63,449 bases of DNA from Chiloscyllium plagiosum (lineage: Eukaryota), in NCBI RefSeq assembly GCF_004010195.1, contig NC_057727.1:7735416-7798864 (forward strand), read 5' to 3'. Positions 1-55,747 of the stretch are shown here, in pieces. The notes under the pieces are model-generated. The model saw only the letters and a program-made list of their open reading frames with translations. It ran no database searches and was not told the origin of the DNA. The position numbers were made by a program, and so were the translations under genes. Positions within the stretch are counted from its first letter, which is position 1. Each line of letters starts with the position of its first letter.

Positions 1-498
1 CGCCCCGTGGCTCAACATTTCAACTCCCCCTCCCACTCTGCCGAGGGTATGGGGGTGCTGGGCCTCCTCCACCGCCGCTCCCTCACCACCAGATGCCTGG
101 AGGAAGAACGCCTCATCTTCTGCCTCGGAACACTTCAACCCCAGGGCATCAGTGTGGATTTCAACAGTTTCCTCATTTCCCGTTCCCCCACCTCATCCTA
201 GCTTCTAACCTCCAGAAACTCGATCCCCTGACCTGTCCGGACTTGTCCGACCTGCCCAGCTCGTTTTCCACCTATCCACTCCACCCTCTCTTCCCTGACC
301 TATCACCTTCATCTCCTTCCCCACTGACCTATTGTACTCTATGCCACTCTCTCCCCACCCCTACCCTCCTCTAGCTTATCTCTCCATGCTTCAGGTTCTC
401 TGCCTTTATTCCTGATGAAGGGCTTTTGCCCGAAACGTCGATTTTGCCTGTCCTCGGATGCTGCCTGAATTGCTGTGCTCTTCCAGCACCACTGATCC
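1..498 (+). mobile_element. Penelope-like retroelement 3' end (GIY-YIG endonuclease C-terminus plus terminal repeat region)
   Basis: ORF 7..201 (VAQHFNSPSHS...LEEERLIFCLGTLQPQGISVDF) matches the typical PLE endonuclease tail. It is followed by a pyrimidine-rich tract and a hammerhead motif. A related copy lies at 37490-38253 (-). Confidence 0.85.
408..443 (+). ncRNA. Minimal type I hammerhead ribozyme motif (Penelope-associated)
   Basis: CTGATGA (412-418), A, GGGC-TTTT-GCCC helix II, GAAA (432-435), C-GTC. Helix I is weak (ATTC/GATT). Confidence 0.7.
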
Positions 499-1098
499 AC
501 TTTCTGGGAGAATGTGAGCAAGACAGTGAGTGAATCCAGCCAGGGAGGAATTCTGTTTTGTCAGCGCAGGTTCTGATGATCTGTAGTGACTGGACAAACG
601 GGTATAGAGGATTTAGCTGGAACAGTGGACGGAGTTGGATGATTAATTATGATTATATTGAATGGTAGAGCAGGTTCAAAGGGCTGAATGACCTACTCCA
701 GCTCCTATATTTTATGTTTCTTTCCAGAAGGCATGGCCGGAATGGGGCAGGCAACAGAATCAAAAACAAATATACTCGAAGAGGAGGTATTTGTAAGGGG
801 ACATGAAAAGTGACTAGTTTGGTAGCTCTTTCAAAGACCTGTTGTGTGTGTGATGGGCTGAACAGCCTCCTTCTGTGCAGCAATGACCCAGGGACCCAGC
901 CATCTAACAAAGAATAAATATGTGCACACCTCCTTCCCTCTCCAGAGAAAATTTCCGTTGTGAGTGCTGGTGAATTTCAGATCTAATTGACATGGGGCTG
1001 GGGGGGTTGGCGGGGGTGGGCAGGCTGAGGAATGGGTGTGCTGGGGCAGAATTTTAATCTGTAAAGGGTATGTGACAAGAGAGAAGAGATTAGTTTAC

Positions 1099-1200
1099 CT
1101 CACGGATCCATCACTGCAGGCTGCAGCCAGGAAGTGACACAAGGAGATGGAGGCTGTCCTGAAATTCGCCTCAGTGTCCACCACCACAATGGACATGTAC
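1099..1200 (-). CDS. WDR6: WDR6 coding exon 3 (YMSIVVVDTEANFRTASISLCHFLAAACSDGSVR); gene continues beyond the left edge
   Basis: AG acceptor at 1202-1201 and GT donor at 1098-1097. Phase matches exon 2. Resembles human WDR6 RYMSLAV...VAAACSDGAVR. Confidence 0.9.
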
Positions 1201-1274
1201 CTTGATGAAAGAGAGTATCACAGATTGATAAAGCCCTCTACACATACAGTCACTGGGCAGTGAACAGCAATACG

Positions 1275-1550
1275 CTTTCAAAACTTTTCAACTTGCATTC
1301 ATCAGGACACATGTAAGAATTCCAGATTTCAAAAGGAAACAACAATTTACACTGCATGAGAAAAGGGTGCTGATTGGTTGCCAAAGTTGACCCTAATTGG
1401 TTGGGATGCTGCAATGGGATATGCACATAGCAATGCCAGAGTGCACTTAGGAATGAATCAGCATCGTAAACAACATGAATTGTCACTCCCCTTTGAAATT
1501 TAGCATTGTTACTCTGCCCTGTCTATGCAAGATGAAAAAGATTCAACAAC
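1275..1550. repeat. Old imperfect palindromic element with a degenerate hammerhead-like end
   Basis: 1292-1347 is a diverged reverse complement of 1478-1531. The minus strand has CCTGATGA at 1299-1306. A related sequence lies at about 10130-10280. Confidence 0.55.
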
Positions 1551-2405
1551 ACATGTCCTTCAACAATAACATAAAGCATTTCAGTTAATTCATACCTGAG
1601 ATAAAAGGGGGTTCAATTCTTCATAATCTTTTTGCTTCTACGAAAAGACTCGGAGTCTGCATGGCTCCTTAATCTCCACCTATATCAGATTGTCGGGCTT
1701 TTACTTGTTGATTCATTTACTAATAATCAACTTTAAAAATTAAACAAATTAATAAATAAATCTGGCACACGAGATAAATAAGGTGGGCAGGTGATGAGAA
1801 CAGTTCCCAAATGCTTCACAATCAATTAAGATCTCTCGAATGCTGTAAAGTAGCGATGACGTTGCTGGAGAGAAAAATATTTACCAGTATGTTGGACTTC
1901 GCTTCTCTGCTCTTTTTCCAACTAAGTTCGAGGTCTACCCAAACAAATTTCAGTTGAGCAAGACAACACCTTCAACATTGCAGCATAGAATCAGGAGTGG
2001 CACTGAAGTATTGGCCAAGATAGTGTCCTAAAATTGTTTGAGTCAGACATGAATGCACAACCTCCTGCCTCAGAGGAGACAGCACGCTACCCACCATGTC
2101 ACAGCTGACACTCATTAACCTTGCCACACTTAAAACTCACCCAGAGGACTCTTGTAGCGCAGTGGTAGTATCCCTACCTCTGACCCAGGAGCCCTAGGTT
2201 CAGGACCCACATTCCTCCAAAAGGTGTACAATAACATCTCTGCGTATGAGAATTAAAAGTAATATTTTAAAACTCATCCTTTTGGCCCCTTCCAAAGTTA
2301 GGTCAGAACGGGGTAAGTGGGAAGGCTGGGGTGAGATTCTACCTTAGCAATATCTCAATAAAAGGCAGTGCCTGAAAAACAACGAGACAGAAACCAAAGT
2401 GATAC

Positions 2406-4878
2406 CTGGTCTCGGGGTCCATCTTGAGCATCCTGTGCCTGTTTTTCTTATGCTCCCAGTCTTCAGCCAGCCTGTGAGAAGCCAGGTGTTCCACTTGACA
2501 GCTGAGAGGTGCACCACCATCGACATGTCGAATAAGAAGGCAGTAAGATTGCAGCTCAGCTCTCCCACCAGCAGAGAATAACACAGATGAGGAGCTGTCA
2601 CCATTACCAGCTCGGCAACTTCCAGTCACAGCTATGGTCCTCACGCTGGAGATGTGGTCATCAACCGTTGTCAGCTTGGACACATGACCTGAGCTTTCGT
2701 AAACGGCTAAAATATTCACTGTTGTGTCCTCGCTGCCTGTCGCCATGATACTTATGGGTCCAGCAGCTGACGATTCAAGCCTTTTCACAAATCGCACACA
2801 GGTAAGCTCACGGCCATGCATGCATTCCTTGATGACTGTCCGGGAGCAGTCGCCCGAGTTGCCTTGGCAAATGAAGATGTCGCCTGACTTGATGTAGGCA
2901 AAGAATTCATTGGTTGGGGAGTTGCAGTAGCTCCATGACCTATGACCTCCACCACAGGGGATGCACAGTAACTTCTCGCTGGTCTTGGCATTCCACAGGA
3001 CAAAGTTGGTGGAATGGAAACCAAGTACAAGGAGGTCACCTTCAGGCGTCGCAAGCAGTCGCTCGAGCCAGTCCATCCCCTTACAGGTTCTCTGACTCCT
3101 TAACAATTTTAGCTTTTTGTCTTCGACTGTCAGCTGACGATAGTAGCCATCCCGTCCAGTGCTGTATATAAAACCGTCGTGGAATAGAACTGACGTCACC
3201 CCCAACTTTCCGTGCAATCCCGGCAAAATGGAAAGTGGCCCTTCGCAGTCAGGCTGGCTGACGATCCCAGGTGAACCAGGTAGGAATCTGCCCTGGCGAT
3301 ACCCTCCTGCTGTATCATCCGAGACCACCACATCCACGCTCCCTTCGCTGAGCCTTTGCTGCTTGTCTCTGTCTCTCCCAGCGCAGGAGTAAAGTAACAA
3401 GGAGCCACGGCGGTCTCCGCAAACCAGGAGATGGGCCTCAGACAGGAACACCACGCTCGTGTGCCACCTGTGCTTGCACAATGGCAGGAGGTAACGGCAC
3501 TTCTCTGCCACCGAGACCACCCGATCTCCCTTGCAGGAAACCACCCGCCAGATCATGATGCCATCGGCACCCGAGGAGAAAAGGTGGCACTCATCTGGAC
3601 TCTGCCCTTCCTGGGAGGCCCAGCCGAGACTGTGCACTTTCCCTTGGTGCACCCGATTCTCCAGCATCTCCACAGGCTCAGAAAGGGTGAATATTTTCAC
3701 CCAGCCGTCAATGTTCCCGACTGCACAAACAACACAGCCATTGCCCAGCCTTCTGACTGCTAACAGGCCGTACGACTGGTAACTTGCATCTTCCATGATG
3801 AGTTTCCATTGGCCAGAGGCCAGGCAATAGCTGTAGATACTTCCAGCATCAGTCAGGACCAAGAGAAGAGTTGGGTCAGCCAATGTCAAAGCCTTTGGTG
3901 TGCCCCTTTTACAGATTTCACCACATTTGAGTTGAATAATGGCCATGCCTTCGGCTTTCTTCCCCTGAATCTTCCACAACCTGATACCTGAGTCTGCTCC
4001 TCCAGTGACTAACCAGCCCTTATCTTCATTAACAGCCAGTGCTCTCACACTCCTCCCTTTATGTCCTTTAAAACAGTCAATGATATCTCCATCATAGCTC
4101 CACACAATGCAAGCTGAATCTTCCCCAATGCTGATAATACGATCTTCCATGAGCCGTACTGACCAGACCCTGGACTGGTGCCCATATAACCGTAGAAGGC
4201 ACTGTACTGAATCTACCTCACCATCACCACCATTCAGAGCTTGGTGCAAGTTCCCAACTTCCCAGAGTCTTATGCTTCTATCATCGGAGGCTGAGGCAAG
4301 AACACCATTCTTCTCCAAGTAATGAATACTGAAGATGACCCCACTGTGCCCACTAATGCGTCTTTCTGTTTGTACCCTACCGTCCTCATTGGTGGGACCC
4401 TCCATTCGCCACAGGACAAGTTGGTTAAAGACAGTTCCAGAAATCAAAATTAGTTCGTCCCAATTGTGACCCACAAAGCAAGCAGAGTACAGGATACATT
4501 TGACATCGCAGTGCACTTCACGCAAGGTCCTTCTTGCCTTGTAGTCACATAGAACCACAGAGTTGTGCCCGAGAGCCAGGCCAAAATACAAGTCCGATTC
4601 ACAGTCACTCTCCAGCCACTGAAGGTCCCAAATCCAGTCGTGCAGTTCGTGTAGCTGCCCGATCCTCTGCAGCTTTGGCTCTCTGGCACACGATTCAAGC
4701 TCGAGCACAATGAGGCCTTTCGCGCCAAACACAGCCAGCCGTGAGCTGTTAGTTTGCACATGTAGAGGCCACGGTTTGATGCCGTGAACACAGTAGTTTT
4801 GAAGCACATTGCAAGAAAGCTTTCTCTCGTAGCCATTTGCCGAATTCAAAGTGTAAAGATTTACACTGGCTCCTTCAC
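2406..4878 (-). CDS. WDR6: WDR6 coding exon 2 (2473 nt, WD40 repeats; tRNA 2'-O-methyltransferase partner, Trm734 homologue)
   Basis: Open frame covering ORF 2339..4849 with many WD40 signatures (GHSGVIF..LASASDDRSIRLW, GHQSRVW, CGGGHRSW, HGRELTCV, MDPETR). CAG acceptor at 4881-4879, GT donor at 2405-2404. Confidence 0.95.
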
Positions 4879-6002
4879 CTGTTAAACAACAGAAAAATTT
4901 AAAAGAAAACTGTTTTTAAAATAATTATTTCTCTTTTACTTGCACTCATTATGTGGGAAAACTAGCAACGGTATAATTAAATTGAATCACATTGAAATTC
5001 CAGAACAGAATCAGGCCATTTGCACCAACTGATTCCTCCTGGTATTTGTACTTCATACAGCCCCCTACCATTTCTTCTATTCTAACTCTGACAGTATATC
5101 ACCTTCTATTCCTGTTCATTCTACTGTAGCTTCCCATTCAGTGCACCGTATTATTCACATCAACTACTGTCCTCTCTTCCAAGGTACAATCTCCTTTGTC
5201 TCCCACTCCAAAGTCTTGAACATGTTGTCAACTCCCAAATTCATGCCCACTATTCCGATAGCTGTTTCCTCACCAAAGCTATCAAATTTGGAATTGCTGC
5301 ATGTTTTATATGGTTTTAATGAGGTTTTATTCTTCCTGCTTTGGTTTTCCATATGTCTTAGCTTTAGAGACAGTTCTTATCCATCACAAATGATATCGTG
5401 GGTGTCTGCAATCATCATAATCTCCTCCTCATCCTTCTCTGCAGCCTTAAACACAACTGACTACACTGTTTCTCCATCTCTAGTTGCCCCAGGACAATGG
5501 CGGTAAACTACTTTCTCCACCAATTATTTCCAACTAAGCGGCTTTCTAGATCAACAAGTTCAACAAACAATCCATAGCGTCGGACTGCAGCTGCATGTAC
5601 AGCAAACTAGGTATAGGTATCTTGGAAAGATGTTAGTGACAATAACAGGGTTTTCCTCAACAGTCTGACAGCTATCAGGGTTATTTTTACAGTGCCTGCC
5701 CACTAAGTATCAGATTTGTTCAGCTCACTTTCATAATTACCATGATGGGTTTGAACAAAGTTCCTCAGTTCTCCCAATCCTGCACCAATAGCACTGTAAC
5801 CCAACATTCTCCAGTATAGTCAGAGTTAGAAGGTACCACTTATGGTGCAGTGATAGCACTCTCTTCCTAATAGTCACAAATTCAGGAGAGCAAATTCCAT
5901 TCCAGGAACTGGAACATCTGGATGTTAAGGGGTTGCTCCACTGTTGGGAGTTACTGCCTTTCAAATGAGACATCGGACTGAGCATATTTCATTGGGTAGA
6001 GT

Positions 6003-6040
6003 GATTCCTGAAGAAGGGCCTGTGCCCGAAACGTCGAATC
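6003..6040 (+). ncRNA. Minimal hammerhead ribozyme motif, intact core
   Basis: GATTC / CTGAAGA / A / GGGC-CTGT-GCCC / GAAA / C-GTC / GAATC. Helix I has 5 bp, helix III is reduced to the palindrome ACGT, and the cleavage triplet is GUC. Confidence 0.75.
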
Positions 6041-6132
6041 TCCTGTTCCCTGGATGCTGCCTGACCTGCTGTGCTGTTCCAGCAATAAAGTTTCAACTTT
6101 GATCTCCAGCATCTGCAGACCTCACTTTCTCC
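6003..6132 (+). mobile_element. Short Penelope-derived element starting at a hammerhead motif
   Basis: Same sequence family as the PLE terminus. Flanked by TAGAGTGAT at 5997-6005 and 6133-6141. Confidence 0.8.
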
Positions 6133-6236
6133 TAGAGTGATCCCAAGGCATCATTAAAAAAAATAGAAATGAAGCTCTCCCTCATATCTTGGTCAATATT
6201 TATCCCTCAATCATCATCAACGCAATCTTTCCAGAG

Positions 6237-6574
6237 TCCTGTGTGTCTGCTGTCCTTGTCCTTCTGGATGGTAGTGGTCATGGATGTGGAAGTGGAAGGT
6301 GCTATTGGAGGTTGGTGAGTGATCCAGCACAGCCTGTAAATGGTACACACTGTGTGTCAGTGGTGAAGGGAGTGAACGTTCAGAGTCTTGTTTGGCGTAC
6401 CAATCAAACAGGCTGCTCTCTCCTGGATAGTGTTGAGCTTCTCTGTGTCTTTCACCTGCTCTCACCCAGGCATTTGGAGACTATTCCATCACTCACCAAC
6501 CTCCAATAGCACCTTCCACTTCCACATCCATGACCACTACCATCCAGAAGGACAAGGACAGCAGACACACAGGA
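6237..6574. repeat. Perfect 87-bp inverted repeat (6237-6323 / 6488-6574) within an old LINE 3' fragment
   Basis: Base-by-base comparison shows the arms are exact reverse complements with a 164-bp spacer. Confidence 0.9.
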
Positions 6575-7850: not shown

Positions 7851-8319
7851 TCAAGAGGAAACCGACCCAAGCTACAGAAGAGGCAGAACTGAGTGAAGAT
7901 GGATGTGCAATGGATTACCAGCGTTAACGCTAAAATAAAACAAAGAACTGCGGATTATGGAAATCTGATACAAAGATCTGAAACGTTAACACTGTTTCTC
8001 TCTCTGCAGATGCTGCCAGACCTGGAGTTTGTCCTGCAATTTCTGCTTTTAAGTTAAAACTCCGTTTGCAATCCTCCAATGTCCCCTCCAGCTTGAGAGT
8101 CCAACCCCTTCAAATTGTAATTAAAAACAGAAAGTCAGTAGGTTTGTGAAGACAGAAATACATTCTACTTTGCTTTCAGTGCTGGAGAAAACTCAGACTT
8201 CCTGCATCCGCCGTATTTTAATTTTATTTAAGGGAATGACTGACTCATGTTTCTGTTTACTCAGTGCAACAGAGATTTTTATTGTAAAGTTAAAAGCTTT
8301 TCTTGAGTTTTAAGGAGAG

Positions 8320-8715
8320 GCTGGAAAAGCTCAGGCTGTGTTCTCTTGAACAACGGAAGTTGAGGGGAGACTTGATAGAAATCTATAAAATTATGAGATA
8401 AGGTTGACAGTCAGAATTCATTTCCCAGGGTTGAAATGTCTAATACTCGGGGACATGCATTTCAGGGGAGAGAGGGAAAGTTTGAAGGAGATGTGAGGGG
8501 CAAGTTTTTTTTACACAGAGGGGTAAGAGTCTGGAACACACTGATGAGGGTGGTGGTGGAAGCAGATACAATAGGGGCATTTGAAGGGTCTTTTAGATAA
8601 GCATGTGAGTAAGGAAGGAATGGAGGGATTCGTTTAATTTGGTGTCTTGTTCGGCACAACATTGTGGGCCGAAGGGCCTGTTCCTCTGCTTTTCTGTTCT
8701 GTGTTCTATGTTCTA
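8320..8715 (+). mobile_element. CR1 LINE 3' fragment
   Basis: Degenerate [13 protein letters not shown] coding remnant and the GGGCCGAAGGGCCTGT...(GTTCTAT)n tail. Confidence 0.8.
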
Positions 8716-9086
8716 AAACTCAGCAAGTCTGGTAGCATTCATGAAGAGAAACAAATTGAATGTTTTAGGTCTGTGATGTATTATCAGAACAATTTGATTA
8801 ATTCCGCTGATCTATGAGATGTTTTGAAGACAACTTTAAGATCATGTCAGAGAATATAATAAAAGAGTAGGCCTTTTCTCATTCAGGCAAATCTTTGACA
8901 GATCTGTATCTTAACTCAATTTATTAAGCGTGGTTCCATAGTCCTTCATCTCCTTAGCTATCAAAAATATATCCATATTAAGATCAGAAATTGTCAATTC
9001 CCCCTGTATTCCTACCTTATAGAGTGAAATGTTCTGGCTTTCCACTACACTTTACTGAAGAAGAGCTTCTGCATCTTTGTTAGCTT

Positions 9087-9586
9087 NNNNNNNNNNNNNN
9101 NNNNNNNNNNNNNNNNNNNNNNNNNNNNNNNNNNNNNNNNNNNNNNNNNNNNNNNNNNNNNNNNNNNNNNNNNNNNNNNNNNNNNNNNNNNNNNNNNNNN
9201 NNNNNNNNNNNNNNNNNNNNNNNNNNNNNNNNNNNNNNNNNNNNNNNNNNNNNNNNNNNNNNNNNNNNNNNNNNNNNNNNNNNNNNNNNNNNNNNNNNNN
9301 NNNNNNNNNNNNNNNNNNNNNNNNNNNNNNNNNNNNNNNNNNNNNNNNNNNNNNNNNNNNNNNNNNNNNNNNNNNNNNNNNNNNNNNNNNNNNNNNNNNN
9401 NNNNNNNNNNNNNNNNNNNNNNNNNNNNNNNNNNNNNNNNNNNNNNNNNNNNNNNNNNNNNNNNNNNNNNNNNNNNNNNNNNNNNNNNNNNNNNNNNNNN
9501 NNNNNNNNNNNNNNNNNNNNNNNNNNNNNNNNNNNNNNNNNNNNNNNNNNNNNNNNNNNNNNNNNNNNNNNNNNNNNNNNNNNNNN
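9087..9586. other. Assembly gap (500 N)
   Basis: Run of exactly 500 n, probably a nominal gap size. Confidence 1.
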
Positions 9587-17099: not shown

Positions 17100-18010
17100 T
17101 AAATTGGGGTGTTCACTGATGACTCCATTGTGACCAGTGTTATTTCCAACTCCTCAGCTACTGAAGTATGGCTGTATCAGCATGCAGCAAGACCTGGATA
17201 ACATTCACTCTTGGGTTAATAATGCGTCGAGTAACATTTACATGACCCAATTGCCAGGTGATGGCCCTTACCAACAGTAGAGAATCAGCTCTGATGACGA
17301 GACATCCAGACTTGAAACGTTGGCTTGCTCTCTCTCTGTGGATGCTGTCTGACCCACTGTGACCTCTAACAGTTGCTGTTTTCAGTACAGAATCCAACCA
17401 TCTCTCCCTGACATTCAAGTCATTTCCACTGCTGAATTTCCACAACATCAACATTATGGGAATTATTACTGACATGAAACTTAACTGGACCAACCACACA
17501 AATACTATGGCTCAAGAGCAGATCAGAGACTGGGAATTTTGCAATGAATAATTGATCCTCTGAATACCAGGGAGAGTCCAATGTCTAGAAGGCGAAAGTC
17601 AGAAGTCTGATGAAATATTCTTTACTTGCCTGGAGAAGGCTCCAACAATCCAAAGAATCAGATCAAAGCAAGTTCTGGCCTGTTTGATCAGACGTTCATT
17701 CCTTCCACCTCCTGTGCACAGTGGAAGCAGTGGGTACCATCTTCAATGTGCATTATAGCAGCTTGTCAATGCTACTTTAACAGTACCTTCTAAACCTGCA
17801 GCCCTCCAAATCACAGGAAAATCTGGACTTGGAACTATATTGCTTTTCCCTTCACTGTCACACAGTCAAATTCCTCAAATTATTACCCAACAGCATTTTA
17901 AGTCTATCAACACCACATGGACTGTGCTGCTTCAAGAAGGGGCCTCATAACCACCTGCTTAAGGCCAATGAGCAATGGACAATAAATACGGGCCTTGCAT
18001 CCTGAGATAA
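17100..18010 (+). mobile_element. Old L2/CR1-clade LINE 3' portion, interrupted by a hammerhead-bearing insert
   Basis: Degenerate FADD...MQQDLDNI remnant and a GGACAATAAATACGGGCCTTGC tail shared with other old copies (18465-18790 minus, 32100-32950 plus). Confidence 0.65.
17287..17382 (+). mobile_element. Short PLE-derived insert with hammerhead motif (third sequence variant)
   Basis: AGCT / CTGATGA / CGAG-ACATCCAGA-CTT / GAAAC-GTT / GGCT, followed by a GATGCTG..TGACC..CTG tail. Flanked by CAGTA(G/C)AGAATC. Confidence 0.65.
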
Positions 18011-18956
18011 TATTTTTTAAAAACCTGCCAATGCGTCATATCCTTGCAATGCCCTGCCTATGGAAGAAAAGTCTGTAAATGAAGTATTTCCATTGATATA
18101 GTGCATTTCACGATCTGCAGACAATCCAAAGTACTTTCCAGTCAATTAAATAATATTGCAATATAGTCATTGTTGTAACGTGGAAAACATAGCAACCAAG
18201 TTGTTGGCATCAACACCCCACAAACAGCAATAATCAATGAAAACATCAAGTTGTTTCAGTGATAAAATTGTTAGGGATCAATATTAATCAGAATACTAGA
18301 AGAAAGTTAACAGCTCTTCCACAAATAATTCCATGGAATCCTTTACACAATCCAAGACAGTTGGTTTAACATCTCAATTGAAAGATGATACTTCAACATT
18401 TCTTTTAGAAGTTTACGTGCTCAAATCTCTAGAGCCTTGAAAATCTTAAAGGTTGCAATGTTTAATAGCTGGCCAGCATTTATTGCTCATCCCTAGTTGA
18501 GAAGGTGGTGGTGAGCTGCCTTCTTTAACCACTGCAGAGCATTTGCTGTAGTTTAACCCAAGTCAAGATGGTGAGTGGCTTCGAGGGGAACTTGCAGAGG
18601 GTGGTGTTCCCATGTATCTGCTGCCCTTGCCCTTCTAGATGGAAGTGGTCATGGGTTTCGAAGGTGCTAGTTAAGGGTTTTTGGTGAATTTCTGCAATGC
18701 ATTTCGTACACCCTGCTGCTACTGAGCGCCAGTAGTGGTGAGAGTGCACACTTGTGGATGTGACGCCAATCAAGCAGGCTGATATGTCCATTCTTCTGAT
18801 AAAAGGCTAGAGAGCAAGTGTCAGAAGACTATATTACAGAAAGAGACACTAAACATCACATCAATCCTGGTCATACCAACATGTGTTCTGACAATGGCTT
18901 GCTGCTCAAAATCAATGGCTATTTTTCTATCGTAACTCAGGGAATACTGTCCCATT

Positions 18957-23067: not shown

Positions 23068-23290
23068 TGGGGAAGAAAAGCAGGAGGCTGAAAGAACACA
23101 GCAAGCCAGGCAGCATCAGGAAGTGGAGAAGTCAATGTTTTGAGTGCAACCCTTCTTCAGGACTGAGTGTGAGTGTAGGGGGAACTGCAGATAAAGAGGG
23201 TGGTGGGGGCAGGGTAGTGAAGTGGGGCTAGGTAGAAGGTACACCTGGTTGGTCAATGGAGGAATGAATCTGGTAGGTGTCAAGGGAAGC
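23068..23290 (-). mobile_element. Degenerate Penelope-like terminal fragment
   Basis: Minus strand reads TCCTGAAGAAGGGTTGCACTCAAAACATTGA...GATGCTGCCTGGCTTGCTG. Confidence 0.65.
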
Positions 23291-33280: not shown

Positions 33281-35859
33281 ATATCCGTTACAAAAACCAA
33301 AATGTTCAAGAAACACAGCAACTCGAACAAAGTCTGTGGAGAGAGAAAGAGTTAAAGTTATCAGTAATCGGTTTCGAAGAATAATCATATTGGCCTCAAA
33401 ACATTAACTGTTTCTCTTTGCAGATAATGACTGACTTGTTAGGCTTCTCCAGCATTTTCCAATTTTATTATTCCTGAAATTCCTCTCTGGTACTATTTTA
33501 ATAAATGAGTTATGGTAACAAATACTCGCCTTGCCAGTAACACCCACATCTTATATCTTATGTTCTTAGGTCAGGAAATAAGACAAAAATCCATTTGGTC
33601 GTTGCCAACTCCATAATTTCAATTTTAAAAAGTCAGCAAAATAAATGTTCTTTCTTTCTCAAAAGGATCCCTAGCAATAAAAAAGATTTCAGTCATAAAA
33701 TTAACAAAGCTTTGAAAAGGCTTCATTTGATGCTCCTTTACATCTAAGTTTTTTTAAATCTAACTGCAGCACCGGGTATAATTCTCATGAACGCTGGTTT
33801 TTAATGTACTCAACTGGCTTCTAACAGAACTGTTAAGTGAATGCAGAAATAATAAAAAAATTGTCACCAAACATATTCTTAATGAAAAGGAAAGCAGACG
33901 GGTCACTTGCAAAACTCGATTGCCATTAGAATTTTTTTAAAATGGAAACCTAACTTTCTTACTCATATTCAGAATTCATTCCGGAGTTTTCAGTGAGGCC
34001 TCCTGTTTGACAATTGTTAACAGCGGGGGAGAATCCTCAATTACTACCGTCAAATAAATTAAAATGACTAAAGAATTCCCCCCGCCAGGACGCATCTTCC
34101 CTCGCTAACTTCAGTTTAGTTAAAAAGTGGGATTTGTACTCTCCGGAAGAATTCTCACCGTTTCCAAGGAGAAGAACAAAACACACACACACCGTGTTTC
34201 GATCTTTTCCAACCACCATAATAAAGGCATTATTACAGAAAGTGAATTGTTTCTGCAACCAAGAAAACTTGTAATATCCAAATTAATCCCAGCCAGAATA
34301 TACAATTGGAATGCGCTCTCTTTGTAAATATTCGACTATGACTTGAAGTCCAAAGATTTAAATAACGGGAAGGAAACTACAGAAATGTATGTTTTCATTA
34401 CAAGGTTTTCTAGCTATCCAAAAGGGAATCCAACCGACTCCCCACAATTAGCTCACGGGGCGAATGTTCTCCCTAAGGCAACAAGCACACAATGTGAAAG
34501 CAAATTATACTTAATTCGTAAAAGATTGGGAGTGTTTCATCAAACAACTTTATATACATTTCAAATGTCAATACATTGTCGGGACTTTACACCAAAATGA
34601 CCTGAAAAAAGCATATTTCACTGCATTCTCGTTTTACGTATTAAAATGACCTCACGATTTGCCTCCGCAAAGGATTTGTGTGCTTTAAATGAAATTGACC
34701 TCCCTTGAGAAGACGGTACTGTGTACGGTTCGTCCCCACAGGGCTTTGATGCTACAGTGGTAGCATTCTGGGTTCAAGTCCCATCTGCTCTGCAAATATG
34801 TCATAATACATACAAACAGGTTGATGATAAATATTAATTAATATTTTTCACGAAATCGCTACTTGATCAAATTATCAACACAAACTGTTTGCAAGTAGTC
34901 CAATTCAGAACAAAAAAGCATTATTTGCCAATATATTTGACGTTAAAGACATTAGATCAGTTTTCAAATCATGGCTACTTTGGATAAGAAACAAAAACAA
35001 ATTGCTGAACCTTTGGGATCACAGGATTCTAGACTTCACTCTGCTCTCTCTCCACAGATACTGCTAGACCTGCTCGGTTTCTCCAGCATTTTCTGCCTGT
35101 TTGTTTCAGATGTCCAGTATCTGCAGTTCCTGGTTTTATTTTACATTGGAAAAGAGTTTATTTGTTAATAAAGGCCATTAATGAAGGTCAAAATAATTAT
35201 GAACTGCCAGACAGCAGACTGGGTGTCATCTGTATCCAGAGAGGTCTGAAAGAAAACAAACTTTGGAATATAATTTACTTCATTTAAGATGCTAACTGGA
35301 ACGTACGAAACAATTATTTTGTTAATTATAGAATTGAGAATTCACCCCAGAGTGAAAAATAAGCTGGATCGACGGCTCAAGATCGTAGATAAATCTAGCT
35401 TCCCCCAAACAAAATCTAAAATGCTGATACAATGTGTAAACATCTAATTTGTTGTGCCGTTGCATCCTGGGTCCTGAATGTAAATAGAGCAACCACAACA
35501 GCAATAAACAGGCGGGGAATAGAAGAATATGGAGAAAGTGAGGACTGCAGAGGAATACGGACCGTGCAGCTGAGCTAACTTTGGAATGGGGTCAAGGTCA
35601 GCAGAGACCGAAGGACCTGTTCCTGTGCTGTCCTGTTCTGGTGTGTTCCTTGAAAAGCATGCCCTAGCAGTAAGTGAGCTTCGTGGACTCACTGTAATGT
35701 GGTTGCAACTCGCCTTAACCCACGTTTAATATTTGCGTGGTTCGCTGCACAAAATAAACGTGTTTAATTTGATTTCCTCCGAACACAAATACATTTCCTG
35801 ATGTAGCGGTTCCCTGCCAGACAATTATCGAGCAGCTGGAGGGGACCAAGACGAAGAGC

Positions 35860-36110: not shown

Positions 36111-36184
36111 GAATATCACGGTCTGCTCAGTTCGGTTGAGTTCTTTGGTCTGACCCAAGTGACACGGGAACCACAAGAACTGTG

Positions 36185-36507: not shown

Positions 36508-37489
36508 GTAAGCAGCGTAAACAGTACTCGCCCAATAACCCACGTTGCTCTTCCTCATCTGACACGTCAACCGTAACAGTGTGAATATACAGAAATCAAA
36601 TTAGCATCAAGTATCAAACGAAAAGAGAAATACGTAACGAGTTGCCTTGTGAAATGTTTTTTCTTTGCTCTCGGGTTTACATGCCCCAAGGTACCAATAA
36701 ACATTTACCCTGTGTCAGTGACACTATTGTCAATTTGTAAAATGGAATCAATTAAGTATTTGTTTAATACGAGGCCTTTTTGAGTGATGTATTTTATTTT
36801 GGTTTTAAGTTATGTATCAGTCTAACATCGCTGAACGGTTTTATTTTCTGAAAGCGAACTGAAATGCAATTATTCCAGTTTTCAAATTCCCAACCTCGCC
36901 GCCTCTAGTTATGCGACAGGCGGTTTTCAGGTGAGGTTCATTTCTATCAGTTTTCACTTTTTTGGGGGAGGGGTTGGGTGGGCAAGAAGACACTCCTTAA
37001 ATTCTTATTTCTCTTCCATTTCCCGTCAACATCCGTGGTCTAATCTTGTTTGTCGGGCTCTCCAGACAGATTAACATTCTGGTACATCTCTTGTTTTCCC
37101 TTTTCCTGTGGGAATTTAAAATTCCTGGTTCTCACTGGACATCTGTCTTACATGTCGCACATTTTCCAATAAGAAATCACTGAGCTGAGATCAGGAACTA
37201 GAAGTCTGGCTCAAATCTTGTATTCCCAGTCAACAGAATTAAAAAGTAAGGCAAGTTGCTTAGCCCTACTTGAGAGCAGCATGCGTATAATAGAAAACAT
37301 TTGGGGCTACTGGAGGGTGTGTGCAGAGATTTGTTTAGAAGAATGATACCCGAAATATCTACGCATAGATATCAAGAAAGTTTGTTTTCTCTTTTCAAAA
37401 GGCTACAGGATGATCGAGTAAAGGTCTTTAAATGTGAAACGGTTTGATAGGGTGGATACGTGGAGAATATTTACTCTTGTAGGGAAGAG

Positions 37490-38253
37490 AAAGGGAGGAC
37501 TGCAGATGCTAGAGATCAGAGTCCACAGTGTGTTGCTGTGAAAGCACAACAGGTCAGGAGCAGGAGAATCAATGTTTTGGGCATAAGCCCTTCATCAGGA
37601 ATGAGGCTTGTAGGCTGGGGCTGAGAGATAAGTGGGAGGAGGGATGGGTAGCTGGGAAAGCTATAGGTGGATGAAGGTGAGGGAGAAGGTAATAGGTCAG
37701 AAGGGCGGTGCCAAGTTGGAGGCTTGGGACTGAGATAATGGGGGGGGGGGGTGAAATTAGCAAAATGTTGAAATCCACATTTATCCAGTGTGGTTGCAGG
37801 GTCCCAAGGCGGAATATGAGGCATTATTCCTCCAGGCTTCGGGTGGTAACGATTTGGCGCTGGAGGAGGCAGAAACCCAGGACCCACATGTCCTTGACAG
37901 AGCGGGAGAGGGCATTGAAGCGTTCAGCCACGGGGCGGTGGGTGCAGGTGTCCCTTGAAATGATCTGTAAGCAGGTGCCCTGTCTCCCCGATGTAGAGGA
38001 GACCACACCAGGCGCAATGGATGCAGTAGATGACATTGATAGAGGTACAGGTAAATTTCTGACAGATGTGGAAGGATTCCTTGGGGCCTTGGACGGAGTT
38101 GAGGGGAGTGGTGTGGGAGCAGGTTTTGCACTTCCTGCGGTGGCAGGGGAAGGCATCGTGAGTTGGGTGTGGGCTGGTGTTGGGGGGGGGGGGGCATCGT
38201 TTTGACGAGAAAGTCGCAGAGGGAATGCTGATAGGGGTACGGAGGGAACTATA
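37490..38253 (-). mobile_element. Penelope-like element 3' fragment (GIY-YIG remnant) inserted in a CR1 tail
   Basis: Homologous to 1-498 with a degenerate hammerhead at about 37570-37602. TSD TCTT(G/A)TAGGGAAGAG at 37475-37489 and 38254-38268. Confidence 0.85.
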
Positions 38254-38633
38254 TCTTATAGGGAAGAGTTTAACAAGAAGACATCAATAAAGGACTTTCA
38301 CCATGAAATCCAAGAGTGAATTCAAAATAAATTTTTATTTCAACCTAAGAATGGCAACAATGTAGAACTTATTACCTGGGATGAAATGTAGATGCATTTA
38401 AGGGAGGCAAGACAAGCAAATGAGGGAAAATAGAATAGAGTCACAATAGGTTTAACTGGGAAAGATGGGAAGATGCTTAAATAGATCATTAACACTGATA
38501 TGGCCTGGCTGGGTTGAATAAGCTGTTTCTGTGCCATTTTTTAATGTAATAATACTCAGTACCAGTTCCAAAAACACAGCAAGCTCAATGCAGAGCATGA
38601 ATTGAGGCTGGCTATTTCTCTTCTGTTTGATTG

Positions 38634-39045
38634 GGGAGAAAGTGAGGTCTGCAGATGCTGGAGATCAAAGTTGAAACTTTATTGCTGGAACAGCACAGCA
38701 GGTCAGGCAGCATCCAGGGAACAGGAGATTCGACGTTTCGGGCACAGGCCCTTCCTCATTTGCTTGTCTTGCCTCCCTTAAATGCATCTACATTTCATCC
38801 CAGGTAATGAGTTCTACATTGTTGCCATTCTTAGGTTGAAATAAAAATTTATTTTGAATTCACTCTTGGATTTCATGGTGAAAGTCCTTTATTGATGTCT
38901 TCTTGTTAAACTCTTCCCTATAAGATATAGTTCCCTCCGTACCCCTATCAGCATTCCTGAGGAAGGGCCTGTGCCCGAAACGTCGAATCTCCTGTTCCCT
39001 GGATGCTGCCTGACCTGCTGTGCTATTCCAGCAATAAAGTTTCAA
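38634..39045. mobile_element. Composite insertion: two inverted PLE-terminal arms enclosing an inverted copy of 38222-38425
   Basis: 16-bp TSD CTCTTCTGTTTGATTG at 38618-38633 and 39046-39061. Arms match the 6003-6132 element. Confidence 0.9.
38953..38988 (+). ncRNA. Minimal hammerhead ribozyme motif, intact core
   Basis: ATTC / CTGAGGA / A / GGGC-CTGT-GCCC / GAAA / C-GTC / GAAT. Confidence 0.7.
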
Positions 39046-39324
39046 CTCTTCTGTTTGATTGCCCATTTGACACGAGTTTAAGTTTCCTTCAGTTCATCAT
39101 CAGTACTGTATATGTAAGCCATCATCTTTGGTTCATGCCAGCATCTGTATATGATTGTTTCAACTCTGTCAGCTTCCCTTGCTGCCTGTTCAAATGAAAG
39201 CAGGTGATGTGGACCTTTGGTAATCTATTCAACTTAAAGTTGTCTACCTCATCACATAGTCAGTAATGGAAACAACTTTATTTCATAGTTCCATAAAAAT
39301 ACTCAATTGTGCTCCTTAGCTTAC

Positions 39325-46660: not shown

Positions 46661-46875
46661 AGTTAAAAATCACAACACCAGGTTATAGTCCAACAGGTTT
46701 AAGTGGAAGCACACTAGCTTTCAGAGCGTCACTCCTTCATCAGGACTACCACCGGATGAAGGAGCAATGATCCAAAAGCTGGTGTGCTTCCAATTAAACC
46801 TGTTGGATTATAACCTGGTGTTGTGTGATTTTTAACTTTGTATACCCCAGTCCAACACCGACATCCTCAAATCAG
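46661..46875. mobile_element. Fold-back PLE-type element (second family) with hammerhead motifs at the centre
   Basis: Imperfect palindrome 46661-46837. Minus strand reads CTGATGA-AGGAG-TGACG-CTCT-GAAA-GCTA. It sits inside a CR1 tail. Confidence 0.75.
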
Positions 46876-48310: not shown

Positions 48311-48577
48311 CATGTTCTCTAATTTCTCTCCATCTTGTAGTGTCTTGGAGCAGTAAGATCAGTACAATTGCTGCAAAGACAGAGATAATGTATTTCGTAC
48401 AGACCAGTGATTAGACAGACATTACATCACTGGAGGTGTTGCACAATGATACTTTCCTCATTCTTCACTTCAATACATCGCACGCTATTTCTTTTTCCAT
48501 TCCAAACAATTTCTGGTTAAGCTCGTCTAGGCATATAGCTTCATCATTAAATTAATCCAGTATACCACAGAGTTACA

Positions 48578-48770
48578 GGGTAAAAACAATGACTGCAGAT
48601 GCTGGAAACCAGATTCTGGATTAGAGGTGCTGGAAAAGCACAGCAGTTCAGGCAGCATCCAAGGCGCAGTAAAATCGACGTTTCGGAAAGGCCTTTTGCC
48701 CGAAACGTCGATTTTACTGCTCCTCGGATGCTGCCTGAACTGCTGTGCTTTTCCAGCACCTCTAATCCAG
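48578..48770. mobile_element. Fold-back PLE-terminal element
   Basis: Palindrome 48616-48770. TSD TACCACAGAGTTACA at 48563-48577 and 48771-48785. Confidence 0.85.
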
Positions 48771-49147
48771 TACCACAGAGTTACAATCCAATTACCTAAT
48801 GTAGAGTACAGTAGACTACATAACCCAGGTTGGCAGCACGGTGGCTATAGCTCAAACACTCCGACCCTGTCTACGTCATCATATTGATAGCTGAACAGTC
48901 GCTCTGGATTCTTAACTTTTGCAGTTATGTTCAGTTATTTTGTCCTTTTTTTGAGTGGTTGGTTTGCTGCAGTCAGATTAAGAGTTTGTCTTGACCTTTT
49001 CCCTTCTGACTGCCTTGTCAGCTAGTTCGGTTGTCAGATCATTAGAATCATTTTACCTGGAATGCAGAGCTACATTAGGTGATTCTTCAACTGTGACGTT
49101 CATAGCACACTAGCACTTGAACCCAGGCTTGCGTCCACAATGCCTCA

Positions 49148-49271
49148 TTCCTTATGAAGGGCTTTTGCCCAAAGTGTCGATTCTCCTGTTCCTTGGATGC
49201 TGCCTGACCTGCTGTACTTTTCCAGCATCACACTCTCGACTCTGACCTCCAGCATCTGCAGTCCTCACTTT
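49148..49271 (+). mobile_element. Solo short PLE-derived element with decayed hammerhead
   Basis: 16-bp TSD CGTCCACAATGCCTCA at 49132-49147 and 49272-49287. Confidence 0.85.
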
Positions 49272-49962
49272 CGTCCACAATGCCTCAGTTCTCTAGCAGA
49301 CCATCTTCCATGAGCATCCTTAGACCAGGGTAGCAGTAGTTTTTAACCTATTTTTAATTTTCACAAAAAATGTTAAGTGGTGGTGGTTTTCTCCGGGGAA
49401 GGGAAGGAATACTCAACTCCCTTCTACCTCTTCTTGTTTGGTGTCTCTTTTGGTTTGAGGTCGCCCTGACACTTTACAGGTGCAACATTCTATGGGTCCC
49501 ACACAGAACTCTGCAAGATAACACTCATCCACAGTCTGTCTCAGTCCTCTTAAAAAAAAGGGATTTAGATTTACAAGTTAAAGATGTCCATTGCACTTTA
49601 AGACTCTAATTCGTTGACATAACAAGGCACTCAAAGCTATTTTCACCAGATGGATCATATGAACACAGAATTAGGAGCAGGAAGAGGCCATCTGGTTCTT
49701 TGCACATTCTGCTATTCATGAAGATCATAGCTGAACTGATTACTCCACATTTATTTCAACTCAGATAACCTTACAGCTCTTACTCATCAAGAATCTACCT
49801 TTTACCTCAGAAACATTTGAATGAAGAATAAAAGAACTAATATAAGCTTCAACTCCTATCCCCCAAACAAAGTTGGAAAAACACAAGACTGGTTCATTGT
49901 AAAGCACCGTAACCATAATACCTGCGTCTAATAAATATATATTTCTGTTCATTACATAACAG

Positions 49963-52640: not shown

Positions 52641-53806
52641 CACTGTGAAATTAAATTGTTATCTGTAAAAGATGACTACAAGGTTACATTGAATCACATT
52701 GGATGAACTTGGAGATTCAGTAGATACAATCTGTCAAATGGCCTCCTTCAGTGTTGCAATAGTTGCTGTTATAATTCTGTTGTGTGAACATTTACAGAAT
52801 ACATTTTCAACCGGGGATCACTAGTCTGTAATCAACAGTGGGATACTCTACTTAATGCAACATGAAAGTGAAATTCTTACTGCTGCTCAATTTAGGTTTA
52901 GGAAGTTATCACAGAGAAAGAATCAAAGCAGGGATTATACTGTCTGCATAACTTAGTGTTATATTGGGAACCATAGGAAACTATGGTTAAAAGTCAGTTT
53001 TGCACATTCAATTCAAGTCACAGCCAGTGCAAACCTGTATGTCCCAAGCATCAGAGTGGTGAATAGGGCATGAACTTAACTTCTTACTTAAAGTGACAGT
53101 GAAACATGGGACACATCACCCAAACAAAGTGAGTTTTTTTTTAAATCCTCAAGAATGTTTTTTCCATGTCATTAACATCTCCTTCAAGTAAAGCTTCCAT
53201 GCAGCAAGTTTGAAATAAAGTTTCAGCAATTTCTAAACAGGCAACTGTGAAGAAAATTATCACAATTTCAGTAAGTTCAACATAGATTGCGCACAAACTG
53301 GAAATCCTTCATTCATTCACTCTCTTGCCTGCCCCTTTGAAAGTCACTAACTTGCAACAGATGGTTCCAGGGGATTCTGTAGCCTTCCCAGAGCACTCTC
53401 ACATGCAAGTTCAAGACACATTGTCAATGGCACAGTCATCCCAATTGAACCTGCCCACAATCAAAGTCTGTACAAGCAATATTTTTTACCAGGGACAGCT
53501 GGATAGCAATCAGGAATGGCTGACTGCCTTCGTTCACCCAGCCCAAACAAAAAACCAGAGAACAGTGCTTGAGAGTAGGGAATAAAAATGGAAGCATCCA
53601 AGTTATGCTTTATTGTTGCAACAAACACTATTGTATAAAATCTTTGCCAGCTCTATTTGTCTGTCACAATTATTTGTACATTACACAAACTTCTCTATAA
53701 CTTGGCAAGATTGTCAAATTACTTGGTTTATTCATAATTTTATTTTTCTAAATAGTGAATTTTGAAACATTGAAACTTACTACTCAAAATATTCTCCCTC
53801 CAACAG

Positions 53807-54129
53807 CAGTAAAAATCAGAATTTCAAAGAGAAACACGAGTTTTACCAAGATCTCAGATTTTGAGATGGACAGCAAAGTGGAGGTCTTCAAGCACGGGCC
53901 CCTCCTCAAAACCGAGATCCATCCCAGGCTTCAGCACTGGCTTGACTTGGATGCCACTTGCGTCCAGAACATGACACGAGGCAACCGTACAGGAACTTTT
54001 GTAATTGTGGGACGAATCCAGGATGGCAAAATTTTAGTGTACAAGGTTTTCTTGTGGCAAAAGCGCAACAAAAATCTCATGCATGCTGTTAGAAAGTGGA
54101 AACACTACAGATGCCGCACGCAATACTGA
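53807..54129 (+). CDS. frzb2: Crescent exon 4: NTR domain to stop (AVKIRISKRN...RLQHWLDLDATCVQN...WQKRNKNLMHAVRKWKHYRCRTQY*)
   Basis: CAG acceptor at 53804-53806, phase 1. The four exons total 903 nt, giving 300 aa plus stop with no disruption. Confidence 0.92.
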
Positions 54130-54705
54130 GATAGAACGGTATATTTGTAAATATGTATTAAGTAACTGTAAAGATCCTATAAAGTACTTTATCTTTTTCA
54201 GTGCTGATGTCCATTCTTAATAGCAAATTACGATCAAGAGTCAGAAATTTAGAATTGGGGCAGAAAGTGATCTCTATGAAATAGAGGGAATTTCGACAAG
54301 TATCAAGGTGGAGTCTTTTATTGACATGAAGTCTGCAAGATTTATAAACAAAGTAATATCTACTTATTCCCAGCCCATTTGTTGTCTGTGTATGCTCAAA
54401 CAATCAGGACTACACAGGCTACACTAGATTAAATTTACATTAAATTAGTACCTGTTTTATCTTAACAATCTAATCATTTTGAGGCTTTGAATTCTTCGAT
54501 ATTTTTCCTCCAAATATCTGTTGTTGATCAGCTCCAACCATTGTCAGCATCATACCTTTTTCTTTAAGAATATGAATTGGCCCCTTGACTCTTTCAGTTT
54601 TTATTCAACACGATATTAATCGAACATGAGTCAAATTACTTTTGCAAAAACTTTAGTCAGACTGCAGCAGTAAGATCAACTACAAAACTGTATGATATAT
54701 ATTGC

Positions 54706-54912
54706 TGAAAATGTGTTGCTGGAAAAGCACAGCAGGTCAGGCAGCATCCAGGGAACAGGAGAATCGACGTTTCGGGCATAAGCCCTTCTTCAGGAAGGGC
54801 TTATGCCCGAAACGTCGATTCTCCTGTTCCCTTCATGCTGCCTGACCTGCTGCGCTTTTCCAGCAACACATTTTCAGCTCTGATCTCCAGCCTCTGCAGA
54901 CCTCACTTTCTC
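54706..54912. mobile_element. Fold-back PLE-terminal element with a hammerhead core on the minus strand
   Basis: Palindrome 54704-54878 with a 5-nt loop. 18-bp TSD CTGTATGATATATATTGC at 54688-54705 and 54913-54930. Confidence 0.88.
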
Positions 54913-55747
54913 CTGTATGATATATATTGCCAACTTTGTCTATACAGAGATAGCAAAGACTAACTAGGATAATGTCCATGCTTGAAAGATTTAAAAAGTT
55001 CAAAATGTTGGAACTGAAAAGGTTAAACAGTAAATCTAAGAGATAAAATTCTCAAATGTTTCAAGGGAGTAATGCATTGTTCTGTGAATTAGTAAAAAAA
55101 AAGGCAAAGATTCCATGTTAGAATCACACAAAGAAGAAAACTACTCAGTCTATCATCCTTATGCCAGCTCTTCACAAATTCTCTTGTTTTTCCACACAGT
55201 ATTGTTAATTATTCCTTTATGATTATCATTGGAAATAAGCAAAATCTGTTTTATTTGCAGTATTGTTTGAACAGGGTGGTTTACCACAAGAACTCATGAA
55301 ATAACCACCAATTCTGGCTAAGAAATAATAAAAGCATTAAAAATTATAGGCAAATGAAAATGGCATATATAGTTTCAGTTATAGAGTAGAATGCCTTTGT
55401 GTTGTAAATTCTATACATACAAATTTTTTGAGATTATTAGTTGATATTAGTCGCTGTTTGCAAAGTACAAATGCACAATGGATACAAACCTCTGATAAAA
55501 TTGTTCTTCATTTAAAGTGGTATTTTGATACACTTCCTTAGTAGGTTGAAGTGTATTGTGCAGAATGGACTGAGTCTGTAGAATAGGAAGGTCAAAGTAA
55601 TGCATCCTGAATTAAATTACATCCAGGCATTGTGACAGTAGGAAATCTACCTTTGGGTCAGCCTTCCTTTCAGAGTGAAGTAGAAAAAAAAGTTAATTTT
55701 CTGCACTTCTTGACCACCATTACTTTTTCTGAAATGCATGTGTGGAC

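What the first reader, a model, noticed from the sequence alone, without database searches (positions are those of the whole stretch)
408..54930. Family of short, hammerhead-headed, TSD-flanked Penelope derivatives (retrozyme-like non-autonomous elements)
Seen: independent insertions at 6003, 38634, 48578, 49148 and 54706 consist only of the last ~125 nt of the Penelope-like element. They end at the element terminus (CACTTTC(TCC) in four; a related ...CATTGTTTTTACC end at 48578) and have clean 9-18 bp TSDs. In each one the inner break lies at or within a few bases of the hammerhead motif. Other variants occur at 17287 and 46661. Known: PLE termini carry minimal type I hammerheads whose short palindromic helix III is thought to work as a dimer. 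Inference: such a tight breakpoint suggests a discrete small RNA substrate or a ribozyme-determined RT stop/switch site, i.e. a non-autonomous retroelement class mobilised by the PLE enzyme, rather than random 5' truncation. It may already be catalogued as a shark repeat.
Basis: partly seen in the sequence, partly recalled or inferred. Interest (0 to 1): 0.72.

Follow-up and report, generated by a model that had tools for sequence, protein, structure and literature searches.

The report
Penelope stubs ending at ribozyme edge
These tiny repeats are end pieces of a known jumping gene (a Penelope-like retroelement) that mostly begin at the front edge of its hammerhead ribozyme motif, about 30 letters before the predicted cut site, and they are likely complete copies of the short front end of the element's RNA rather than a separate self-spreading family.

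Summary
The insertions, 9-18 bp target-site duplications (TSDs) and hammerhead motifs are real, but only 2 of the 5 are lone ~125-nt units. Three are head-to-head two-armed insertions with the ~35-nt Penelope 'tail' on one arm; one also holds 204 nt of inverted local DNA. All are termini of a GIY-YIG Penelope-like element whose longer copies lie in the same window. The tight break holds genome-wide: in sequencing runs, hundreds of contigs with unrelated flanks join at the hammerhead's 5' edge (ATTCC), on two references and in a second species. That edge is 32 nt upstream of the predicted cleavage bond, so self-cleavage does not make it. Short copies group with different long subfamilies and are not tandem arrays, so they fail the retrozyme definition. 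Best reading (0.55): the element's enzyme starts internally ~90 or ~125 nt from the RNA's 5' end and runs off it; priming on both target strands would give the palindromes. The transcription start is inferred, not mapped. This scan noted the same class in other windows of this genome. Known parts, with a sharp boundary that I did not find in print.

The parts
6004..6132 (+). Solo short unit: ATTCC, minimal hammerhead (core 6008-6035, predicted cut after 6035), ~60-nt stem region, 35-nt tail. TSD TAGAGTGAT at 5997-6005 and 6133-6141, overlapping the unit by AT
49147..49272 (+). Solo short unit with decayed hammerhead core. TSD 49133-49147 and 49273-49287; its last six letters (GCCTCA) equal the element's own upstream letters, so the break may lie up to 6 nt earlier
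54706..54913 (.). Head-to-head pair: tail-less arm 54796-54706 (minus, starts TTCCTGA, full core) and tailed arm 54794-54913 (plus, starts GAAGGG), 3-nt overlap; arms differ at 3 of 82 positions. TSD 18 bp at 54688-54705 and 54913-54930
48578..48770 (.). Head-to-head pair of another subfamily: tailed arm on minus from 48578, tail-less arm on plus to 48770; both lack the CUGA core. TSD 15 bp at 48563-48577 and 48771-48785
38634..39046 (.). Compound insertion: tailed arm 38758-38634 (minus), 204-nt inverted copy (38754-38957) of local DNA 38222-38425 with 1 mismatch and 5-6 nt microhomology at each end, tail-less arm 38953-39046 (plus, starts ATTCC). TSD 38619-38633 and 39047-39061
1..499 (+). 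Long copy cut by the window edge: end of the GIY-YIG-bearing ORF (1-198), pyrimidine-rich 3' spacer, hammerhead 408-443, tail-less end near 499
37487..38238 (-). Long decayed copy: CX4CxxC linker and GIY-YIG-type region, 3' spacer, hammerhead (5' edge at 37602), tail
23087..23260 (-). Diverged copy that continues at least 90 nt into a pyrimidine-rich spacer upstream of its hammerhead (helix I AGTC/GACT); upstream end not mapped
46661..46873 (.). Second family, same layout: tail-less arm (minus), tailed arm (plus), centre at the hammerhead 5' edge; degenerate TSD
17285..17400 (+). Older family, single arm beginning at its hammerhead (helix I AGCT/GGCT); no TSD found
35531..35553 (-). Tail-only piece, possible degenerate 9-nt TSD; weak

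Best explanation
The short units are termini of an autonomous Neptune-type Penelope-like element, and they likely form when its enzyme nicks the target, starts reverse transcription internally on the element's RNA at one of two sites (~90 or ~125 nt from the hammerhead's 5' edge) and runs off the RNA's 5' end, which is inferred to lie at that edge. One primed strand would give the solo unit. Priming on both target strands, one at each start site, with the two cDNA ends joined by 3-6 nt of microhomology, would give the head-to-head pairs with a tail on one arm. At 38634 one cDNA likely switched onto nearby host sequence before joining. Long copies would come from templates on which the hammerhead region lies downstream of the ORF, or from a template jump. 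Shown: identity with PLE termini, two 3' ends, TSDs, sharp 5' edge upstream of the cut bond. Inferred: transcription start at the edge, twin priming, and that the stubs are dead ends.
For: (1) Parent: 37930-38238 is 60% identical to a Chiloscyllium punctatum protein whose relatives carry RT and GIY-YIG domains; 1-198 is 35 of 48 identical to its C-terminus. (2) Sharp edge, reference window:1-540: loose ends before 408 in 829 of 5,801 partly laid contigs (X1), 726 plus 214 at 409 of 5,240 (X3), 747 of 6,965 (X10, another species, counts incomplete), 353 of 1,783 reads (X21); median loose length 129-255 nt and agreement 0.32-0.34 in the contig runs. (3) Second reference with the other subfamily's spacer: 358 and 517 of 6,312 partly laid X1 contigs break at 37601 and 37602 with AT-rich flanks, agreement 0.30-0.31; X21 depth falls from 940 to 50 within 12 nt. 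(4) Opposite-strand joints at 407-411: 36 contigs in X1, 16 in X3, 35 in X10 among the rows shown. (5) The commonest first loose letter at 37602 reads G on the element strand, the least expected of the three possible letters; G also precedes 407/408 in 4 of the 5 listed joints with letters; this fits a copied cap. (6) Anolis PLE in vitro: internal initiation at two sites that define the tail, both target strands cut and extended, 5' template truncation shortens the product, hammerhead cleavage not needed (PMC11167929). (7) Transcription starts inside the pLTR in Drosophila Penelope and Chlamys-3. (8) At 54706 the tail exists on one arm only and the loop letters fit only the other strand, so simple fold-back of one cDNA cannot make it (sequence).
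Against: No transcription start was mapped. The G evidence is a majority letter and five joints, and a G at that place would also extend helix I by one pair, so it may be templated; no window junction shows an unambiguous extra G (at 6003 the G lies inside the TSD). Part of the pile-up is an artefact of long copies with other spacers: the loose consensus at 408 ends in the other subfamily's letters, and the 556 contigs at 37603 have a G-rich consensus. Only 24 of 1,603 and 12 of 224 loose-end rows were shown, so no full breakpoint histogram exists. X21 is RNA skewed by single loci (283 reads at 37606, agreement 0.6). Long copies are common: peak DNA word depth in the ORF end is a quarter to a half of that at the hammerhead, and 3 of 11 arms in the window are long. 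In Drosophila Penelope the start lies 46 nt before a 75-nt intron whose end meets helix I, so a start at the helix I edge is not general. Frangieh et al. studied a Poseidon, not a Neptune.
Confidence: 0.55

Rival explanations
1. RT stall or programmed switch: the template is a long read-through RNA and the enzyme stops just after the hammerhead, at helix I or on entering the C-rich spacer, then joins or switches.
For: Same edge in several families; the spacer upstream is strongly pyrimidine-rich; long copies pass the same point, so such templates exist.
Against: Structures usually stop RT on their 3' side (general knowledge), not after they are copied; the predicted hammerhead fold is weak (-7.1 kcal/mol); the G excess just upstream of the edge is unexplained by a stall.
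Confidence: 0.22
2. One reading: a self-propagating non-autonomous, retrozyme- or SINE-like family, with short units transcribed from an internal promoter and copied again in trans.
For: Discrete size, clean TSDs, very high abundance; 6003 and both 38634 arms are 99-100% identical; Penelope has an internal promoter; single contigs show tail-less ends joined to the edge, that is possible tandem units; retrozymes were reported in one cartilaginous fish; non-autonomous PLEs exist in Chlamydomonas.
Against: 0 of 5 insertions are tandem; units are not permuted at the cut bond; short copies pair with different long copies (48578 with 408 at 86-89%, support 0.99; others 75-83% to 48578); the Anolis enzyme needed RNA beyond the tail. 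No long partner of the 6003 subfamily was seen in the window, so a short-only master for it is not excluded.
Confidence: 0.13
3. Solo pLTRs left by recombination between the two pLTRs of longer insertions.
For: A solo unit with a TSD looks the same; solo pLTRs are described in Adineta.
Against: Cannot make two-armed inverted forms or the host-DNA compound (3 of 5), and still needs a cause for the fixed 5' edge.
Confidence: 0.05
4. Ordinary random 5' truncation plus ascertainment and alignment artefact.
For: Other-subfamily long copies do pile up at the edge; one tail-only piece and three long copies lie in the window.
Against: 875 contigs with unrelated AT-rich flanks at two adjacent bases; 4 of 9 window insertions break within 8 nt, P 1e-3 to 8e-6 under uniform breaks over 130 or 500 nt (post hoc).
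Confidence: 0.03
5. The edge is made by RNA processing: hammerhead cleavage or a 3' splice site.
For: In Drosophila Penelope the intron ends at helix I.
Against: The cut bond is 32 nt downstream; no AG precedes ATTCC in the long copies at 408 and 37602; a spliced RNA would give a shared upstream exon, but flanks agree at only 0.30.
Confidence: 0.04

Closest known systems
Minimal hammerheads in pLTRs of metazoan PLEs (Cervera and De la Pena 2014, PMC4209133; parts 1-2 of 4 read)
   Same: Same architecture (short helix I, extra base before helix II, palindromic helix III); mostly single dispersed motifs, some in opposite-strand pairs, attributed to truncated PLEs.
   Different: No breakpoint analysis and no shark in the parts read; no statement that copies begin at the motif's 5' edge.
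Poseidon PAc of Anolis (Frangieh et al. 2024, PMC11167929; parts 1-2 of 4 and passages read)
   Same: Two internal RT starts define the tail; hammerhead lies about 110-120 nt upstream of them; both strands are primed.
   Different: Poseidon clade; ORF starts in the hammerhead (the ATG at the equivalent place here is absent in 3 of 6 main-family cores); no short genomic class or transcription start described in what I read.
Inverted pLTRs with one-sided tail (Arkhipova et al. 2013, PMC3846280, passages; Craig et al. 2021, PMC8557442, passages and section 10)
   Same: Head-to-head pLTRs, 30-40-nt tail on one end, TSDs, solo pLTRs, host DNA captured between pLTRs.
   Different: Low copy number in the rotifer; explained there by self-priming on an antisense template; here whole insertions are just two ~90 and ~125-nt arms.
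Non-LTR retrozymes (Cervera and De la Pena 2020, PMC7229834, passages; Li, Clavereau and Pollet 2026, bioRxiv 10.64898/2026.07.22.740005, parts 1-3 of 5; supplements not seen)
   Same: Non-coding, type I hammerhead, related to PLE pLTRs; dispersed monomers also occur.
   Different: Defined as tandem repeats with two or more hammerhead units giving circular RNA; the window's copies are solo or inverted and TSD-flanked.
Retroviral minus-strand strong-stop DNA and LINE-1 twin priming (recalled, from no call)
   Same: Internal priming near the RNA 5' end with run-off; inversion from priming on both target strands.
   Different: No tRNA primer or integrase; here the run-off product itself would be integrated by target priming.

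Membership tests
EN+ Penelope-like element terminus (pLTR) | Continuous with an RT plus C-terminal GIY-YIG ORF | tested here: met
   Long copies 1-499 and 37487-38238 match the C-termini of RT/GIY-YIG proteins; the window fragments alone give no Pfam hit and P0001's GIY-YIG hit is below cut-off
EN+ Penelope-like element terminus (pLTR) | Optional 30-40-nt tail on one end only | tested here: met
   4 of 4 two-armed insertions (38634, 46661, 48578, 54706)
EN+ Penelope-like element terminus (pLTR) | Minimal type I hammerhead with paired helices I and II | tested here: met
   Helix I keeps pairing with different letters in four families (ATTC/GAAT, AGTC/GACT, AGCT/GGCT, CAC/GTG); Rfam gives no hit
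Neptune clade | CX2-5CxxC linker before the endonuclease (Craig 2021) | tested here: met
   CHRRKCKTC in the 37930-38238 translation
Neptune clade | Placement in an RT tree | not tested
   No RT sequence of the element lies in the window
Non-LTR retrozyme | Tandem array with two or more complete hammerhead units | tested here: not met
   0 of 5 insertions; single-contig joints hint at rare tandems elsewhere
Non-LTR retrozyme | Unit ends set by the ribozyme cut | tested here: not met
   Edge at 408, cut at 439/440
Non-LTR retrozyme | Self-cleavage and circular RNA | not testable with these tools
   Needs bench work; the one usable RNA run is a poly(A) single-cell library
Self-propagating non-autonomous family (SINE-like) | Short copies form their own lineage apart from long copies | tested here: inconclusive
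   Short copies are split among long ones in an 11-sequence, ~83-nt tree, but the 6003/38634 subfamily has no long partner in the window
Catalogued shark repeat (Dfam, Repbase) | Match to a library entry | not testable with these tools
   No such library is offered

The most novel reading that the evidence does not exclude
Penelope-like elements replicate by a retrovirus-like two-step route: a capped RNA starts at the hammerhead's 5' edge, the enzyme makes a ~90/125-nt strong-stop cDNA on the target, and the ribozyme cut in the downstream repeat leaves a 32-nt terminal redundancy onto which that cDNA jumps to copy the body. The stubs and palindromes are failed jumps. This would give the PLE hammerhead a job and explain pseudo-LTRs, tails and inverted ends in one scheme.
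Probability: 0.17. Interest if true: 0.78.

Novelty: new variant of a known kind. Interest (0 to 1): 0.48.

Why it matters
How Penelope-like elements, the closest retroelement relatives of telomerase, finish a copy and what their hammerhead does are open questions. A very abundant class of stubs with a base-sharp 5' edge upstream of the cut bond, and two-armed forms using both RT start sites, predicts the transcription start and a twin-priming step, both directly testable by cap mapping and by the existing in vitro assay. It also warns that such palindromes can be mistaken for MITEs or microRNA hairpins (sub-threshold mir hits) and the solos for retrozymes.

Tried and rejected
No whole genome is held for this window, so the genome-wide test rests on two read layings. 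Rfam: no hammerhead family at E<=5; three sub-threshold microRNA hits are the palindromes. Metagenome pattern scan: 3 loci, all with bacterial-looking gene context and no element beyond the motif, discarded. Viral scan: 0. Run search: no RNA holder listed; X22 laid 0 reads, no test. Strand bias of X21 in the ORF region was not used as evidence of PLE transcription. Joints from body positions to 408 ('between: not known') were dropped as likely long copies with unaligned spacers, likewise the skip joints. Loose ends at 443, 445, 451 and 37556-37559 were dropped as artefacts of reference indels. Co-folding two hammerheads did not return the active dimer and says nothing on activity. Short goes-back joints near the cut bond are single contigs spread over 37556-37577 and do not single it out. 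A fuzzy motif script timed out. A rule that the tail-less arm always keeps the intact edge was considered and dropped, as 46661 is ambiguous. Look-ups of earlier findings by words, near place and sequence gave nothing.
Full report
OBSERVATION. The five loci are real and each insertion has a TSD: 9 bp at 6003, 15-16 at 38634, 15 at 48578, 15-16 at 49148, 18 at 54706; 0 of 2,964 random position pairs gave 9 or more. Only two are lone units (6004-6132, 49147-49272). 54706-54913 and 48578-48770 are head-to-head pairs, one arm ending at the full terminus and the other about 35 nt short. At 38634 the TSD flanks 413 nt: a tailed arm, a 204-nt inverted copy of 38222-38425 (1 mismatch) with 5-6 nt of microhomology at both ends, and a tail-less arm. 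46661 is a second family with the same two-armed layout; 17287 is an older family. Rfam found no hammerhead at E<=5, but the motif is plain in the sequence and helix I stays paired with different letters in four families.

PARENT. Window 1-499 and 37487-38238 continue upstream through a pyrimidine-rich spacer into the end of an ORF. The second is 60% identical to a Chiloscyllium punctatum protein whose longer relatives (71 at E<=1e-30) mostly carry an RT domain and in many cases GIY-YIG; the first is 35 of 48 identical to that protein's end. The CX4CxxC linker points to the Neptune clade by the criterion of Craig et al.; no tree was made. So the stubs are PLE termini in a shark-type genome. 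Of 11 arms of the main group, 8 are short and 3 long; one further 23-nt tail-only piece is a weak hit.

IS THE BREAK TIGHT? No genome was held, so I laid public runs on two long copies. On window:1-540 the strongest upstream loose end shown is base 408, the A of ATTCC: 829 of 5,801 partly laid contigs in X1, 726 (plus 214 at 409) of 5,240 in X3, 747 of 6,965 in X10 (another species; counts incomplete), 353 of 1,783 reads in X21. Flank agreement is 0.32-0.34 in the contig runs and 0.47 in X21. X21 depth is 34-85 in the spacer and 820-990 over the motif. Opposite-strand joints at 407-411 recur (36, 16 and 35 contigs in the rows shown). A confound was visible: long copies with another spacer also break there. 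On window:37541-37720, which carries that other spacer, 358, 517 and 556 of 6,312 partly laid X1 contigs break at 37601, 37602 and 37603. The first two groups have AT-rich unrelated flanks (agreement 0.30-0.31, median 255 nt); the third is G-rich and at least partly a third spacer. X21 depth falls 940, 555, 50 over three 6-nt bins, though single expressed loci skew that run. Limits: 24 of 1,603 and 12 of 224 loose-end rows were shown; peak DNA word depth in the ORF end is a quarter to a half of that at the motif, so long copies are common. The picture is a spike plus a broad long class, not a smooth decay.

WHERE THE BREAK IS. The edge is 4 nt before the CUGA core and 32 nt before the predicted cut (439/440). 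None of the 8 short arms begins at the cut, and the cut is not among the loose-end rows shown. The template was therefore uncut, matching the Anolis result that cleavage is not needed and that no RNA ends mapped at the cut (PMC11167929).

MECHANISM. In that paper the enzyme starts internally at two sites that define the tail, 111-118 nt into an ORF that begins in the hammerhead, primes both target strands, and gives shorter products on 5'-shortened RNA. Transcription starts inside the pLTR in Drosophila Penelope and Chlamys-3. If the shark RNA starts at ATTCC, internal initiation gives exactly the ~90 and ~125-nt arms by run-off. This step is inferred. I held this reading before the look-up; earlier notes there added the idea of a copied cap. 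My test is weak but positive: the commonest first loose letter at 37602 is G on the element strand, against a background in which it is the rarest allowed letter, and G precedes 407/408 in 4 of 5 listed joints. Against it, such a G would also extend helix I, and no window junction shows a clear extra G. For the palindromes, simple fold-back fails at 54706, because the arm that could fold back lacks the tail found on the other. Two primed strands using different start sites and joining by a 3-nt overlap fit, and 4 of 4 two-armed insertions have one tail. The 38634 compound adds a switch to local sequence; its orientation fits either nearby DNA or a plus-strand host transcript (a Frizzled-domain exon lies on plus at 36140). 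Rivals are a stall on long RNA (0.22), a self-propagating short family (0.13), recombination (0.05), RNA processing (0.04) and random truncation (0.03).

RETROZYME? Retrozymes are tandem arrays of hammerhead units that yield circles. None of the 5 insertions is tandem, the ends are not at the cut, and short copies split among long ones (48578 with 408, support 0.99). The Anolis enzyme needed RNA to +172, about 55 nt past its start sites, so by analogy a stub lacks part of the binding site. The young 6003/38634 subfamily has no long partner in the window, and rare tandem joints exist, so a short master is not excluded.

KNOWN VERSUS NEW. Known: minimal hammerheads in pLTRs, mostly as dispersed single or opposite-strand motifs; inverted and solo pLTRs, one-sided tails and host capture; internal initiation. 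I found no paper describing a dominant stub class bounded at the hammerhead's 5' edge or a run-off origin in nine library searches; the library lacks most subscription journals, Dfam and Repbase were not available, and the Li et al. supplements were not seen. Papers were read in part, as listed under Closest known systems; PMC2377424 as passages. This scan has noted the same class in other windows of this genome; those are unchecked notes, not support.

VERDICT. A real, very abundant by-product class of a known retroelement, with a sharp boundary that makes the PLE transcription start and twin priming testable. New variant of a known kind; interest 0.48.

Noticed in passing
window 6237-6323 and 6488-6574: Perfect 87-nt inverted duplication 100 nt downstream of the 6003 insertion, partly similar to 18586-18663; no hammerhead seen. 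Origin unexplained (recent fold-back event or assembly).
   Followed up: no
window 1285-1538: Degenerate inverted pair with a hammerhead-like core at 1286-1305 (minus); probably a further PLE family.
   Followed up: partly
window 7930-8066, 32404-32610, 33278-33487, 35018-35140, 8708-8783: Older relatives of the 17287 family; 32404-32610 and 33278-33487 are decayed head-to-head pairs, so the layout is old and recurrent.
   Followed up: partly
window 38222-38425 and 38754-38957: 204 nt of local DNA copied in inverted orientation into the 38634 insertion, 200-400 nt from its source.
   Followed up: yes
window 2339-4915 (minus): 858-aa uninterrupted ORF of WD40 type; looks like WDR6 (name recalled, not searched).
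   Followed up: no
window 36140-36511 (plus): Exon with a Frizzled cysteine-rich domain (Pfam Fz, E 4.7e-13), secreted Frizzled-related type (sizzled or crescent, recalled).
   Followed up: partly
joints 440-442 to 407/408: Three single contigs join the motif just past the predicted cut, through 1-4 letters ending in G, to the 5' edge; would fit a jump from a capped end to a cleaved 3' end, but too few and not repeated.
   Followed up: partly
window about 9085-9585: 500-N assembly gap.
   Followed up: no
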